41,003 bases of DNA, taken from the IMG/VR virus record IMGVR_UViG_3300033076_000432, positions 1-41,003 of that record, one strand, 5' to 3'. Shown piece by piece: positions 36,303 to 41,003 of the stretch. The first letter of the stretch is position 1. Each line of letters starts with the position of its first letter. The position numbers were made by a program, and so were the translations under genes. Under the pieces are notes generated by a model, which was not told the origin of the DNA, did not search any database, and saw only the letters and a program-made list of their open reading frames with translations. This stretch comes from a virus. Taxonomy: Duplodnaviria > Caudoviricetes.

Positions 36303-36521
36303 ATGCCTACCTTCACCATCTCCCATTCCCTGCGAGCCCTCCAAGCGGCCACCATCAGCGCCCGCGAGCGCAGCGGAGATAAGCACATCGGCACCACCGC
36401 CGAACGCGGAATGTTCACTGTTGTGCGCGTCATCCCGAATGGCCGCAAGGCCGCGACCGTAACGCCTCTCAGCCAGCCCATGCCGATCCACGATGCGATC
36501 CAGTTCCTGCACGCCCTCTGA
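36303..36521 (+). CDS. Hypothetical 72-aa protein of a counter-oriented moron
   Basis: GGAG RBS; first gene after the 36248 promoter. Confidence 0.6.
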   Translation: MPTFTISHSLRALQAATISARERSGDKHIGTTAERGMFTVVRVIPNGRKAATVTPLSQPMPIHDAIQFLHAL

Positions 36522-36705
36522 GATTGCGCAGGCCCGCATAGCGGCGGGCTTGACGCAGCGGGAAGCCGCTGAACTGGTGCATCTCGGTTCGCCTGTCCGT
36601 TGGACTGAGTACGAGAACGGCACGCGCAACATTGATGCTGCACGCTGGGAGCTTTTCAGGCTCAAGGTTTGGTTACGCTCACGCAAGATCAAACTCCCGT
36701 GGTAA
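36493..36705 (+). CDS. XRE-family HTH protein
   Basis: TPSEIAQARIAAGLTQREAAELV...RWTEYENGTRNI...WELFRLK. Confidence 0.75.
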   Translation: MRSSSCTPSEIAQARIAAGLTQREAAELVHLGSPVRWTEYENGTRNIDAARWELFRLKVWLRSRKIKLPW

Positions 36706-37167
36706 GCAGTCGCCATGCTGCTGCTCGACATTGCGGGACTTGGCCGTTCCCGATGGCCTTAAGGCGGTGTGTCCGATGGGCCACCCCATGAGCAATGCGT
36801 GGGGTTCCATCCTCCCAGCTATTGGTCGGCCAAGACGTTTCGCCGTCGCGTGCCAATAGTCGTGGCAATGACTGCAAAGTGTTTGCAGGTTGGCCGGATC
36901 GTTGTTGGTTTGGTCCTGGTCGCAATGGTGAACCACCAACCGTTTCTTGTACCCGCAAACCTCGCAGGCTTCCTTCCGATGCTTTCTGGCCCTCCACAAA
37001 TACGCGCCGGGCGTCACTTTCTCTCTGCTGTTCGCGCATGTCAGAGAACAAAACTCCCGCTTCTGATAAATCGTCGCATCCTCCAGACGACCGGAGTACC
37101 TTTTTCTGCTGAACTGCTTGCCGCAGTTCTTGCAACTTTTCGTTTGCAACTCCAATGCGTGCGACAT
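36679..37167 (-). CDS. HNH endonuclease nested in an alternative frame of the C5 MTase gene
   Basis: CKNCG..F...FCSLTC Zn knuckle; CEVCG...VHHCDQDQTNNDPANLQTLCSHCH HNH motif. Confidence 0.8.
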   Translation of the reverse strand: MSHALELQTKSCKNCGKQFSRKRYSGRLEDATIYQKREFCSLTCANSREKVTPGAYLWRARKHRKEACEVCGYKKRLVVHHCDQDQTNNDPANLQTLCSHCHDYWHATAKRLGRPIAGRMEPHALLMGWPIGHTALRPSGTAKSRNVEQQHGDCLPREFDLA

Positions 37168-37918
37168 CTATTTCGCCTCCAACCTGGTGTGCCCTTTTGG
37201 CCATCCCATCAAAAGCTCGACCCAATCCGGGTTCAGCAGCCCACCAACTTCCCACGGCAATGTCTTGCCACGGCTTTGCGCATCGCGCTCCGCTTTCACT
37301 TCTGCCGTGCATGAATCGCTCCGGTAATCCCTGGCGGTTGGCGTCGGCCACATCCGCACCGCAGTCGCAAGCCCGTCCCCGCTGGTCGCACTCGCACCCT
37401 TGCGGTTGTGGTTCCCGCACACTGTCGGCGTGGGCCAGAATCCAGAGTCTGTCCCTCTGGTGCGGCGCCCCAACATCGGCTGCTCCCAGCACCGTCCACC
37501 GGCAGTCATACCCGAGCGCGGCCAGGTCACCGAGAACTCGTCCGAGTCCCCGAGTAACGAGTGCTGGGCTGTTCTCCACAAACGCGAATCGGGGTCGAAC
37601 CTCGCCAATGATGCGGGCCATTTCTCCCCATAGCCCGCTGCGCTCGCCGTCCAATCCGGCACCCTTTCCTGCGACGCTGATGTCCTGGCACGGGAAGCCT
37701 CCCGAAACCACATCAACAACGCCTCGCCACGGTCGCCCGTCAAAGGTGCGCACGTCATCCCAAACCGGGAAATGCGGGAATGTTCCGTCGGCTTGTCGGG
37801 CCAGTAGAACTGATCTGGCGTAGGCGTCGTACTCGACTGCGCAGACGCATCGGTGTCCGAGCAACTGGCCTCCGAGAATGCCGCCACCAGCCCCGGCAAA
37901 AAGCTCCAGCTCATTCAT
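36689..37918 (-). CDS. DNA (cytosine-5) methyltransferase, alpha polypeptide (409 aa)
   Basis: ATG 37918; motifs I LFAGAGG, IV GFPCQD, VI ENS, VIII HQRDR and X AIGNGQV; no motif IX. Confidence 0.9.
   Translation of the reverse strand: MNELELFAGAGGGILGGQLLGHRCVCAVEYDAYARSVLLARQADGTFPHFPVWDDVRTFDGRPWRGVVDVVSGGFPCQDISVAGKGAGLDGERSGLWGEMARIIGEVRPRFAFVENSPALVTRGLGRVLGDLAALGYDCRWTVLGAADVGAPHQRDRLWILAHADSVREPQPQGCECDQRGRACDCGADVADANRQGLPERFMHGRSESGARCAKPWQDIAVGSWWAAEPGLGRAFDGMAKRAHQVGGEIDVARIGVANEKLQELRQAVQQKKVLRSSGGCDDLSEAGVLFSDMREQQRESDARRVFVEGQKASEGSLRGLRVQETVGGSPLRPGPNQQRSGQPANTLQSLPRLLARDGETSWPTNSWEDGTPRIAHGVAHRTHRLKAIGNGQVPQCRAAAWRLLTTGV
37168..37914 (-). CDS. Putative beta polypeptide of the C5 MTase, in an overlapping frame
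   Basis: 248-aa open frame starting 4 nt after the alpha ATG; WPTP repeats and motif-IX-like LNPDWVELLMGWP. Confidence 0.7.
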   Translation of the reverse strand: MSWSFLPGLVAAFSEASCSDTDASAQSSTTPTPDQFYWPDKPTEHSRISRFGMTCAPLTGDRGEALLMWFREASRARTSASQERVPDWTASAAGYGEKWPASLARFDPDSRLWRTAQHSLLGDSDEFSVTWPRSGMTAGGRCWEQPMLGRRTRGTDSGFWPTPTVCGNHNRKGASATSGDGLATAVRMWPTPTARDYRSDSCTAEVKAERDAQSRGKTLPWEVGGLLNPDWVELLMGWPKGHTRLEAK

Positions 37919-38025: not shown

Positions 38026-39044
38026 GCGGCCTCCGCAAACAAATCAAGCGTCCGCGCCACCGGCATGCAATGCGGGCTGCACCACAGCGTCTCGCTTGCG
38101 CTGTTCTCCACCGCTTCATCCGTCAGCGCATAGCCCTTTCTGGCCGTCCAGGTGCGCGTGTGCCACCCTACCCCTAGCAATTCGTCATGCTCGCCCCTGT
38201 GGCCGCATAGAACGATGCGCAAGGCCTTGTCGTTGCCATGCTCCTTGCACCATGCCCGCACCTCCCCGGATAGCTCGCCCCCGACACCTCCGGCGCTGTA
38301 GTCCATCGCGCCCTTGGTGTACGGCGGGTCAAGAAACAACGCGGTCAGCCCGTGCCGCGTGGTAACCGAATCCTTGACAACCCGGCTCCAATCCCCGCAT
38401 GTCACCCGGACATCTCGCAGCCGCTGGCGCAATAGCGCCATCCATTCGTGGATATAGGCCGAACGAGCGCCCTGCCCAGCATCGCCAAGGTGCGGGAGTT
38501 GGCGATTGATGCCCTGCCCAGCGGAAAGGTGCGGGAGTTGGCGATTGATGCCCCGCCCAGCGGAAAGGTGCGGGAGTTGGCGGGAATCCACCAGCGTCTC
38601 GCCGTCATGTATCCACGGCCCCGTCCCGCTACACCATCCCGTGCCAATCCAGTTGCACGCCCCCCAGCACCACCAGCCCGCAATCTTGGCGTCGTAATAC
38701 TCCGGGTCGCCGTGCAGCTTGTCCGTTAGTCCTGCAGCGTGCCGCACCAGCCAAGAGTGCCGAGCAAACAGGTCTACCTCATTGCACGGCCAATCGGCGG
38801 CATCGGCCACCGCCTCCGGGTCAGCCGCAACGGCCCTCCAGAAGTTAGCCACAAAGCCATCAGCGTCGTTGATGGTTTCAACCCGCTTGCCATCCGGCGC
38901 ACCGAGCAACATAGCGGCAGAGCCAGCAAACGGCTCGACGTAGTTGTCCACCGCGCCGAACGCCTGCCACACCTCGTCGCATGCGCCCGATTTACCCCCA
39001 AACCACGGGAATGGAGCGGCCAAGGTTCCAGCTATGCTTTTCAC
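38022..39044 (-). CDS. D12/Dam-class DNA adenine methyltransferase
   Basis: PFPWFGGKS, YVEPFAGSAA, TIND and FLDPPY; probable GTG start at 39044 (GTGA coupling). Confidence 0.85.
   Translation of the reverse strand: MKSIAGTLAAPFPWFGGKSGACDEVWQAFGAVDNYVEPFAGSAAMLLGAPDGKRVETINDADGFVANFWRAVAADPEAVADAADWPCNEVDLFARHSWLVRHAAGLTDKLHGDPEYYDAKIAGWWCWGACNWIGTGWCSGTGPWIHDGETLVDSRQLPHLSAGRGINRQLPHLSAGQGINRQLPHLGDAGQGARSAYIHEWMALLRQRLRDVRVTCGDWSRVVKDSVTTRHGLTALFLDPPYTKGAMDYSAGGVGGELSGEVRAWCKEHGNDKALRIVLCGHRGEHDELLGVGWHTRTWTARKGYALTDEAVENSASETLWCSPHCMPVARTLDLFAEAA
38469..38582. repeat. 39-bp tandem repeat (~3 copies) inside the Dam-like gene
   Basis: AAGGTGCGGGAGTTGGCG at 38487, 38526 and 38565; peptide RQLPHL x3. 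Confidence 0.92.
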
Positions 39045-39980: not shown

Positions 39981-40439
39981 CTATGTCACACCATCAAACT
40001 CCCTGAGCCATTCGTCGCGCATGTCCGCTTTCGGAAACGGAATCACGTTGCCGATGTACTTGTCACGAAATGCCTTCACACCATCCACAAGCGTGGAGCC
40101 GGGCAACCTGGGGTCGAGCCATTGGCCCTGCCACCTGTACTTCGTCACCGTGGTTTGCGCAAAGTTGATATCGCCCTTGTCGTTGTGCGATGTCAGAAAG
40201 GCCACGGCATATCGAGCGGGCGGCTGATGGCACGCATCACACAGTCGCTCAATGGCAAGGCGTTGCCCATACGGCACCGGAGCGCCCGCGTACTTGGCCT
40301 CCACAAAAACAAACAACTTGTTGTTGAAGTCAATGAACGCGTCCAAATCGGTCGGGGTAATCTTCCCGAACGTCAAGCCACTCATGTCGGCTATCTGTTG
40401 CCGATACATGCGGTTCTGAATAACGCCGCGCTCACTCAT
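39981..40439 (-). CDS. PD-(D/E)XK-fold nuclease-like protein (152 aa)
   Basis: ATG 40439; TPTDLDAF...FVFVEAKY...GQRLA pattern. Confidence 0.55.
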   Translation of the reverse strand: MSERGVIQNRMYRQQIADMSGLTFGKITPTDLDAFIDFNNKLFVFVEAKYAGAPVPYGQRLAIERLCDACHQPPARYAVAFLTSHNDKGDINFAQTTVTKYRWQGQWLDPRLPGSTLVDGVKAFRDKYIGNVIPFPKADMRDEWLREFDGVT

Positions 40440-41003
40440 GGACGAACACCGTCCCCTCGTCAGCAAACGCCGCTGCAAACGTCCGAACCTTGTCGCCCAT
40501 GTACAGGATGGCCTGCCCCTGCAACGGTGCGCCAGACGGGTTGCCCTGCGGGTCAAGGAACTTGATGCGGCTGCGCGGAAAGCACACCGCTGCGGCAACC
40601 TGAGCCATACGCTGGAACCACGCCGTCTCGGTAGCGTTGTTCACCAGCACGCATGCCTGCTTGACTTCGCCCGCCTCGTACTTCGCAGCCAGAGCCTCGG
40701 CAAAGTCGCCAATCAGCGGCTGCGCATAGGGAGGATTCATCCACACCCGAGCGCCCCACGGCTTGTCTCTGCCGTCGTCCTGCGCCGTATAAATGTGCTT
40801 GGCCTTGACCGTCTTGTTGGCTACCTCGGACGATGCCGGATCGGTGTCGATGCCACCCATCACCTTGCGAGCCAGTTCGATGTACTGCGGTGGCGTGTAC
40901 CGCTCGGTGTTACCGCTGTTCTGCGCCACATGGACATGCGCCTTGGCAACCTCGCGCATCTGCTCCACCGTGGCAGCGGCCACCTCGGCCTGGACGGCCT
41001 CAG
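40432..41003 (-). CDS. Phage N6-adenine DNA methyltransferase, 5'-truncated by the window end
   Basis: ERYTPPQYIE..R.VMGGIDTDPAS, VWMNPPY and NNATETAWFQ; frame open to the window end. Confidence 0.85.
   Translation of the reverse strand, partial: EAVQAEVAAATVEQMREVAKAHVHVAQNSGNTERYTPPQYIELARKVMGGIDTDPASSEVANKTVKAKHIYTAQDDGRDKPWGARVWMNPPYAQPLIGDFAEALAAKYEAGEVKQACVLVNNATETAWFQRMAQVAAAVCFPRSRIKFLDPQGNPSGAPLQGQAILYMGDKVRTFAAAFADEGTVFVHE

What the first reader, a model, noticed from the sequence alone, without database searches (positions are those of the whole stretch)
36679..37240. HNH endonuclease overprinted inside a methyltransferase by a frame-preserving 420-bp insertion
Seen: the motif-IX region is duplicated exactly 420 bp apart (GGTGT at 36766 and 37186). 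In the beta frame it reads LLMGWPKGHT then LLMGWPIGHT; in the alpha frame GRAFDGMAKRAH then PRIAHGVAHRTH. Between the copies the beta frame reads TAG-ATG and encodes a complete Zn-knuckle plus HNH nuclease, while the alpha frame stays stop-free for all 140 codons and reaches motif X. I see no intein termini or intron hallmarks. Inference: a mobile nuclease that avoids killing its host gene without splicing, by rebuilding the beta C-terminus, inheriting the old tail and keeping alpha open. TAG read-through would give a beta-HNH fusion, a possible compact restriction-modification-like unit.
Basis: partly seen in the sequence, partly recalled or inferred. Interest (0 to 1): 0.78.

Follow-up and report, generated by a model that had tools for sequence, protein, structure and literature searches.

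The report
Hidden HNH cassette rewires two-frame methylase
A small DNA-cutting (HNH) gene sits inside a phage cytosine-methylase gene that is already written in two overlapping reading frames, carrying spare copies of the sequence it interrupts so that both methylase chains stay intact; it likely spreads by homing without being spliced out, and it combines two published tricks.

Summary
On the minus strand, alpha (37918-36689, 409 aa) is open through a net 420-bp insert; beta (37914-37168) ends TAG and the HNH ORF (37167-36679) starts at the next codon. An empty allele in a run that holds this phage fixes the junction inside motif IX (V-E-W-L-M-G). The read-through frame is stop-free in 69 of 71 distinct relatives (0 stops against 486 expected in 65 elements) but is otherwise weakly conserved. 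Alpha's nearest relatives are empty alleles, which fits homing. The wiring varies: 20 relatives read alpha through, as here; 41 read beta through into motif X (3n+1 insert, M.AquI-like split); 10 database proteins are beta-HNH fusions. In this window read-through is unlikely: the HNH has its own strong ribosome-binding site, and the stop codon varies among relatives. It works like the published ShiLan hidden HNH, inside an M.EcoHK31I-type host. I found no paper on the combination, but this scan has reported it several times on other genomes. Cleavage, methylation and lack of splicing are untested. Verdict: new variant of a known kind.

The parts
36689..37918 (-). Alpha chain of a C5 cytosine methyltransferase, 409 aa: motifs I-VIII (residues 1-166), variable linker, read-through of the insert (about residues 235-375), motif X
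   Evidence: PF00145 E 4.9e-33; M.HaeIII and M.HhaI best folds
37168..37914 (-). Beta chain, 248 aa, +1 frame inside alpha; two WPTP units and motif IX; ends TAG
   Evidence: (phrog_1008 DNA methyltransferase, E 7e-27)
36794..37215 (-). Inserted element: 422 nt in place of 2 nt of the motif IX Trp codon, net 420 bp
   Evidence: (joint 36793 to 37216; empty-allele contig identical over 36764-36793)
37186..37236 (-). Working motif IX of beta (LNPDWVELLMGWPKGHT): host half up to 37216, recoded element-borne half after it
   Evidence: beta 224-247 predicted to touch alpha motif X
37176..37180 (-). Shine-Dalgarno GGAGG, 8 nt before the HNH start codon
   Evidence: duplex -9.7 kcal/mol; 0.6% of 500 background positions as strong
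36679..37167 (-). HNH endonuclease ORF, 162 aa, same frame as beta: N-terminal Cys knuckle (C12, C15, C40, C44) and HNH core (C68, C71, H80, H81, D83, N93, C98, C101, H102, H106), all invariant in 19 aligned members
36794..36832 (-). Element 3' end, which in the alpha frame rebuilds the W-x4-W-E-D segment before motif X
   Evidence: W in 24 and 20 of 28 representatives; alpha 368-377 in the predicted interface
36679..36793 (-). Old host right flank: orphaned half of motif IX (LMGWPIGHT, 36792-36766) and old beta tail, now the HNH C-terminal tail
36701..36775 (-). Motif X of alpha (RTHRLKAIGNGQVPQCRAAAWRLL), about residues 382-406
   Evidence: pLDDT 87-92 for 391-409

Best explanation
This is a 420-bp HNH nuclease cassette inserted in motif IX of a two-frame (alpha/beta) phage cytosine methylase; it likely spreads by homing and likely stays in both the RNA and the protein, leaving the methylase predicted to work. 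Shown: the cassette interrupts the V-E-W-L-M-G site; its 5' end supplies a recoded second half of motif IX and a stop for beta; it has its own ribosome-binding site and ATG; one frame through it is purged of stops, and its last codons rebuild the segment that leads into alpha motif X. Predicted: alpha carries the 140 residues as an unstructured loop added to an already variable linker, and alpha and beta still assemble. Inferred: the HNH is translated on its own, cuts or nicks empty alleles in co-infecting phages, and is copied in by recombination repair; recoding of the junction protects the invaded allele. Small indels between the motif IX copy and the HNH start switch which chain carries motif X (alpha here, beta in most relatives) or remove the beta stop.
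For: Read-through frame stop-free in 69 of 71 distinct HNH relatives, while the third frame has stops in 70 of 71. 0 stops against 485.6 expected in 65 elements; T at HNH wobble positions that would make a stop: 0 of 1491, against 1170 of 3566 elsewhere. Empty alleles: 67 of 81 non-HNH loci with an alpha ORF have motif X in it; 74 distinct empty target sites. Window alpha lies in a clade with 11 empty alleles (SH-aLRT 99; nearest 87% identical), and starred branches force at least 9 changes of invaded state among 125 alphas. L192 and L212 have HNHs 96% identical in alphas 47% identical; 33 of 67 pairs with HNH identity of 88% or more have alpha identity of 75% or less. Trp before LMG in 63 of 74 empty sites but 4 of 57 invaded 5' copies. 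An empty-allele contig in run X1 is identical to the right flank for 30 nt and then continues with V-E-W codons. AlphaFold2: core and motif X confident, insert mostly under pLDDT 50. Complex alpha+SAH+beta: score 0.87, best of 3 controls 0.00; runs share at least 60% of contacts, partner pLDDT at least 54; this mark was reached by 116 of 157 solved and 2 of 215 mismatched pairs, only roughly applicable here; alpha 227-367 is not named in the interface. Decay stages seen: L160 (stop in HNH, alpha open) and L331 (HNH gone, ends kept).
Against: No cleavage, methylation, expression or splicing data. HNH and alpha identities are still weakly correlated (Spearman 0.29 over 990 non-independent pairs), so part of the spread is vertical or by ordinary recombination. 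Invaded and empty sets came from different searches, so their proportions mean nothing. Three of the window's nearest empty alleles (L008, L014, L040) have Q instead of W at the site. The complex pass may reflect likeness to solved monomeric C5 methylases. The alpha tree is a quick tree with long branches. Elements are related, so the stop counts are not independent events.
Confidence: 0.8

Rival explanations
1. The insert is removed at RNA level by an unrecognised self-splicing intron, and the open frame is a by-product.
For: Sequence at the 5' end that resembles the 3' flank is also seen in group I introns (PMC11855218). Not tested by RNA data.
Against: The HNH ORF and the rebuilt ends fill the whole 420 bp, leaving no room for a ribozyme core; no Rfam hit; absolute stop avoidance (0 of 1491) and rebuilt motif IX and W-x4-W-E-D ends would be needless if spliced.
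Confidence: 0.04
2. Compact restriction-modification-like unit: TAG read-through, or loss of the stop, gives a beta-HNH fusion that cuts DNA unprotected by this methylase.
For: The HNH ORF is in frame with beta and starts at the codon after TAG. Ten database proteins are stop-free beta-HNH fusions: 2 of 3 hits among 63 longer candidates and 8 of the best 150 cluster representatives. One starred clade of three (P0024, P0037, P0038) has no Met before the HNH.
Against: In this window: strong own Shine-Dalgarno, no tRNA gene in the genome, TAG ends 3 of 21 long minus-strand ORFs. All 18 class A elements scored have a stop, of three kinds, two with several stops; 41 class B elements put beta out of frame with the HNH; none of 71 loci is a fusion. 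Fusions arose at least 6 times on the tree and 7 of 10 keep a Met near the HNH start, which fits tolerated loss of a stop. Their DNA could not be read, so GTG/TTG starts or assembly errors are not excluded.
Confidence: 0.06
3. The insert is a fixed or domesticated passenger spread by ordinary phage mosaicism, or its read-through peptide has a function of its own.
For: Some HNH-alpha co-descent; a few wobble positions are constrained beyond stop avoidance.
Against: Read-through frame averages 46% identity against 71% for the HNH frame; most conserved four-fold HNH columns vary freely at the wobble base (mean 1.56 of 2 bits over 24 columns); no PHROG match; low-confidence fold; catalytic residues invariant; a second, different HNH occupies the same site in L077.
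Confidence: 0.07
4. The invaded methylase is dead and the open frame is a relic.
For: Phage methylases are often dispensable (PMC11855218); activity untested.
Against: Stops are purged in all 65 elements tested; catalytic P76-C77, E115-N116 and R155, R157 are invariant in 65 alphas including the window.
Confidence: 0.03

Closest known systems
ShiLan domain and Pacc40 gp60 insertion: hidden out-of-frame HNH endonucleases in mycobacteriophage DNA methylases (PMC11855218; parts 1-4 of 6 read)
   Same: Insertion in a phage methylase, stop-free in the host frame, HNH with zinc fingers in another frame, no intein or intron signature, patchy distribution, 5' end resembling the 3' flank, predicted loop-out.
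   Different: Here the host is itself two-frame; the HNH lies in the beta frame after a rebuilt beta end; it has a clear Shine-Dalgarno (ShiLan has none); the family switches between alpha-through, beta-through and fusion wiring. Sequence kinship to the ShiLan element was not tested.
M.EcoHK31I, two-chain C5 methyltransferase (passages of PMC2836561 and PMC3404938; Lee et al. 1995 not read)
   Same: Alpha with motifs I-VIII and X; beta encoded wholly inside alpha in another frame and carrying motif IX.
   Different: No nuclease insert is mentioned for it in the passages read; its TRD is placed in alpha, whereas here alpha's middle is low-confidence and variable and beta carries repeated WPTP units (TRD in beta is my inference, untested); specificity here unknown; no cognate restriction gene recognised next to it.
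M.AquI (passage of PMC3404938)
   Same: Split of motifs I-VIII from IX-X, which is what the 41 beta-through relatives and the remnant L331 produce.
   Different: The window itself keeps the EcoHK31I-type split; in relatives the AquI-like split results from the cassette.
mobE insertion in Aeh1 nrdA (abstract of PMC3045599)
   Same: A mobile endonuclease inserted in a gene without RNA or protein splicing; element-derived sequence helps the host enzyme keep working.
   Different: mobE splits nrdA into two genes; here a host chain is translated straight through the nuclease gene.

Membership tests
ShiLan-type hidden HNH insertion | Insertion in a phage DNA methylase that is absent from homologues | tested here: met
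   74 distinct empty sites; joint and empty contig
ShiLan-type hidden HNH insertion | No stop when read in the host frame | tested here: met
ShiLan-type hidden HNH insertion | Complete HNH ORF in another frame | tested here: met
ShiLan-type hidden HNH insertion | Patchy distribution over the host tree | tested here: met
ShiLan-type hidden HNH insertion | Sequence homology to the ShiLan element itself | not tested
   ShiLan sequence not fetched; no annotated phage covered 80% of the locus and none of the 30 listed matches extended past query base 537
M.EcoHK31I-type two-frame C5 methylase | Alpha with motifs I-VIII and X; beta nested in another frame with motif IX | tested here: met
M.EcoHK31I-type two-frame C5 methylase | Alpha and beta associate | tested here: inconclusive
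   Prediction supports it: 0.87 against best control 0.00; a model, not a measurement
M.EcoHK31I-type two-frame C5 methylase | Methylation needs both chains; TRD in alpha | not testable with these tools
   needs assay; alpha's middle is low-confidence
Homing endonuclease | Intact catalytic and metal-binding residues | tested here: met
   17 invariant columns in 19 members
Homing endonuclease | Insertion disrupts a conserved site; invaded allele differs there | tested here: met
   W in 63 of 74 empty sites, 4 of 57 invaded 5' copies
Homing endonuclease | Cleaves the empty allele and drives gene conversion | not testable with these tools
   needs bench test
Intein | Splicing domain and terminal residues in the host frame | tested here: not met
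   no Pfam intein family on alpha, no PHROG on the read-through peptide, no such fold; insert begins near AFDG and ends TPRI before A-H-G
Group I or II intron | Ribozyme core around the ORF | tested here: not met
   no Rfam match at E up to 10 except one chance miRNA hit; coding sequence fills the insert. RNA not examined
Type II restriction-modification unit | Nuclease fused to, or sharing specificity with, the methylase | tested here: not met
   stop plus own ribosome-binding site in the window; no PADLOC restriction-enzyme model among the 4 hits of the HNH. Shared specificity itself is not testable here

The most novel reading that the evidence does not exclude
The cassette is a rewiring device as well as a parasite: it hands motif X from alpha to beta (and the change outlives the nuclease, as in L331), and where the beta stop is lost it welds the nuclease to the methylase's likely DNA-recognition chain. 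At least one lineage (P0024, P0037, P0038, no Met before the HNH) would then be a domesticated methylase-nuclease, a new route to a restriction-modification-like enzyme from a single three-frame gene, with the window's TAG-ATG junction one base change, or a leaky stop, away from it.
Probability: 0.08. Interest if true: 0.75.

Novelty: new variant of a known kind. Interest (0 to 1): 0.45.

Why it matters
It extends the non-splicing 'hidden HNH' class from a few mycobacteriophage methylases to a widespread family (71 distinct loci here; 79 clusters at 50% identity with E up to 1e-30) and gives a tractable test system: a precisely mapped target, empty alleles, and natural variants of wiring. It shows how a selfish nuclease can invade a doubly coded gene without splicing and can re-partition an enzyme's subunits, a plausible origin for M.AquI-type splits (inference). 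In practice gene callers will miss one or two of the three ORFs. Each ingredient has a published precedent and the scan has met the combination before, which limits the surprise.

Tried and rejected
DNA repeat finder did not list the duplication among its 20 largest families; it is visible only by fixed-offset comparison and in protein. Annotated phage genomes: 30 records matched, none covering 80% of the locus, so no cultured carrier was found. No sigma-70-type promoter in 36500-37700, no tRNA, no Rfam intron. PDB search with the HNH profile gave no hit at E under 0.001 (best DotN 0.006; I-HmuI 0.61), so nick versus double-strand cut is open. No RNA holder listed; run X18 gave only other organisms' contigs. 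Viral-contig scans with the two first fusion proteins returned 37 loci, none carrying this HNH family at the site. A formal dN/dS in both frames was not run; I used stop avoidance, wobble entropy and identity per frame instead. Breakpoint mapping against 8 nearest empty alleles alone was ambiguous (ties from -4 to +20 around motif IX) and was settled. Literature: searches found no paper describing an HNH inside a two-frame methylase; the library lacks most subscription journals, and no supplements were read. PMC10448857 passages gave nothing usable. Rows set aside: of 315 loci, 93 had an HNH hit at E up to 1e-12 and 71 were distinct; 5 were unclassifiable (truncated), 2 (L161, L213) did not fit the pattern, 3 sit at motif VIII; L138 and these last five were classed by hand; one search left out those five and L160; one search used the 46 with both anchors.

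Full report
Setting. The window is a 41,003-base virus record with a terminase gene and three DNA methylase genes in a row. The finding lies in the last of them, on the minus strand.

Observation. Alpha runs 37918-36689 (409 aa) without a stop; beta runs 37914-37168 in the +1 frame and ends TAG; the HNH ORF starts at the next codon and ends at 36679. Alpha matches PF00145 over residues 1-166, and its model matches M.HaeIII and M.HhaI best. Beta matches a PHROG annotated as DNA methyltransferase. The third ORF matches HNH families. The two motif IX copies are 420 bp apart. At DNA level the repeat is recoded: 32 of 60 bases at the best offset, 19 of 24 in the core.

Host gene. Of 81 distinct non-HNH loci with an alpha ORF, 67 have motif X in that ORF by my pattern, with motif IX in the +1 frame, mostly 41 nt before it. 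This is the layout described for M.EcoHK31I (passages). A complex prediction of window alpha, SAH and beta scored 0.87 against a best control of 0.00; the runs share at least 60% of contacts and partner pLDDT is at least 54; the mark was reached by 116 of 157 solved and 2 of 215 mismatched pairs, counts that hold only roughly here, and the pass may reflect likeness to solved methylases. In that model beta 224-247, which includes the element-borne half of motif IX, packs on alpha motif X, and alpha 227-367 is not named in the interface. AlphaFold2 gives blocks of pLDDT 73-98 for residues 1-170, 87-92 for 391-409 and mostly under 50 between. The native linker before the insert is also low-confidence and variable, which likely explains why 140 more residues are tolerated.

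Junction. Across 46 invaded loci the 5' copy follows the 74 empty sites up to the Glu codon of W-V-E and drops at the next codon (mean agreement 0.20 against 0.77), while the 3' copy follows them from about there onward. A contig of run X3 joins 36793 to 37216 with two other letters between, net 420. In run X1, which holds the window's insert with 0 differences, a 39-nt contig shares 36764-36793 exactly and continues with the codons of an empty allele; its depth (9.6) plus the insert's (26.8) is close to the right flank's (35.3). Contig depth is a crude figure, but this suggests invaded and empty alleles with one right flank in the same sample. So the right-hand copy is host DNA, and the left-hand copy after 37216 came with the element. 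The residue before LMG is Trp in 63 of 74 empty sites and in 4 of 57 invaded 5' copies, as expected if recoding protects the invaded allele (inference). Against a simple rule, three near empty alleles carry Gln there.

Selection on the read-through frame. Searches in viral, metagenome and genome contigs gave 71 distinct close HNH loci among 315 examined. The frame that leads to motif X is stop-free in 69; the third frame has stops in 70. Redrawing synonymous codons gives 485.6 expected stops in 65 elements against 0 seen, and 247.7 against 295 in the third frame; wobble T that would create a stop occurs at 0 of 1491 positions against 1170 of 3566 elsewhere. The peptide itself is weakly conserved: 46% mean identity against 71% for the HNH, with most wobble positions free. 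The exception is the last ten or so codons, where W-x4-W-E-D recurs and mimics the segment before motif X in empty alleles. Selection therefore acts on reaching motif X, not on the loop.

Three wirings. Twenty loci, the window among them, read alpha through the insert; 41 read beta through into motif X while alpha stops near the junction; 3 related HNHs sit at motif VIII with a duplicated motif VIII region; 5 are truncated and 2 do not fit. Spacing is 3n in 7 of 7 alpha-through and 3n+1 in 39 of 39 beta-through loci with both anchors. The beta-through split (I-VIII apart from IX-X) is that of M.AquI. The classes interleave on the HNH tree: starred branches force at least 3-4 switches, and the window's HNH is sister to four beta-through elements (99/88). 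L331 keeps both element ends and the beta-X fusion after losing the HNH; L160 has a stop in the HNH with alpha still open; L077 has a different HNH at the same site. A third wiring, beta fused to the HNH, is absent from the 71 loci but present in 10 database proteins, arising at least 6 times; 7 keep a Met near the HNH start, and a starred clade of 3 does not.

Mobility. The window's alpha lies among 11 empty alleles (SH-aLRT 99; nearest 87%), and invaded state changes at least 9 times on a quick tree of 125 alphas. Near-identical HNHs sit in divergent alphas (96% against 47% for L192 and L212; 33 of 67 close HNH pairs have alphas at 75% or less). A residual correlation of 0.29 shows some shared descent. 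Metal-binding and catalytic residues are invariant in 19 members. Homing is inferred from these patterns; cleavage was not tested.

Translation of the HNH. GGAGG lies 8 nt before its ATG, inside the last codons of beta (duplex -9.7 kcal/mol; 0.6% of background positions as strong; family median -5.5 over 57, background -2.7). All 18 alpha-through loci scored have a stop between beta and HNH (10 TAA, 4 TAG, 4 TGA; two with several). The phage has no tRNA gene. Separate translation, probably coupled to beta termination, is the likely reading. The old beta tail stays on the HNH ORF in only 5 of 61 elements.

What is known. The non-splicing, out-of-frame HNH in a phage methylase was described in 2025 as the ShiLan domain, including the resemblance of its 5' end to the 3' flank (PMC11855218, parts 1-4 of 6 read). 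The two-frame methylase is M.EcoHK31I. The Aeh1 mobE insertion is another splice-free solution (abstract). Searches found no paper on the combination. Earlier notes of this scan report it on at least five other genomes, and one reports the 3n+1 wiring; I had found ShiLan and the beta-through loci before reading them, and I do not count them as support. Motif numbering beyond what state is recalled from general knowledge of C5 methylases.

Verdict. Real, well supported, and a new variant of a known kind. What this locus adds is an exact junction from a co-occurring empty allele and a family view in which one cassette gives alpha-through, beta-through, remnant and fusion forms. Interest 0.45; 0.75 if a fusion lineage proved to be a working methylase-nuclease (probability about 0.08).

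Noticed in passing
L331:1968-2190: Remnant cassette: both ends kept, HNH core gone, motif IX to X spacing 180 instead of 41; beta remains fused to motif X.
   Followed up: partly
L077:3200-3700: A different HNH (Cys knuckle after the core) at the same motif IX site, with beta-through wiring.
   Followed up: partly
L158 (same contig as L003), L215, L216: Related HNH inserted at motif VIII: beta reads through, alpha is split; in L003 the second alpha piece restarts with a duplicated motif VIII.
   Followed up: partly
L160:1890-2380: HNH broken by a TGA while alpha stays open; the 5' copy reads W-V-E-W again.
   Followed up: partly
P0001, P0003, P0011, P0024, P0025, P0026, P0037, P0038, P0042, P0114; P0013: Ten beta-HNH fusion proteins, and one partial protein that joins an alpha N-half to the HNH.
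   Followed up: partly
window:38022-39053 and 40432-40983 (minus): Two adenine methylase genes (PF02086, PF05869) just upstream of the C5 methylase; the first has a 39-bp tandem repeat, 2.5 copies, at 38487-38582.
   Followed up: no
window:36303-36705 (plus): Two small plus-strand ORFs (72 aa unknown; 70 aa helix-turn-helix) converge on the methylase; the second overlaps the ends of alpha and the HNH ORF on the opposite strand at 36679-36705.
   Followed up: no
L341:1797-1904: Motif IX to X spacing of 107 (66 extra bases), alpha open; possibly another remnant.
   Followed up: no
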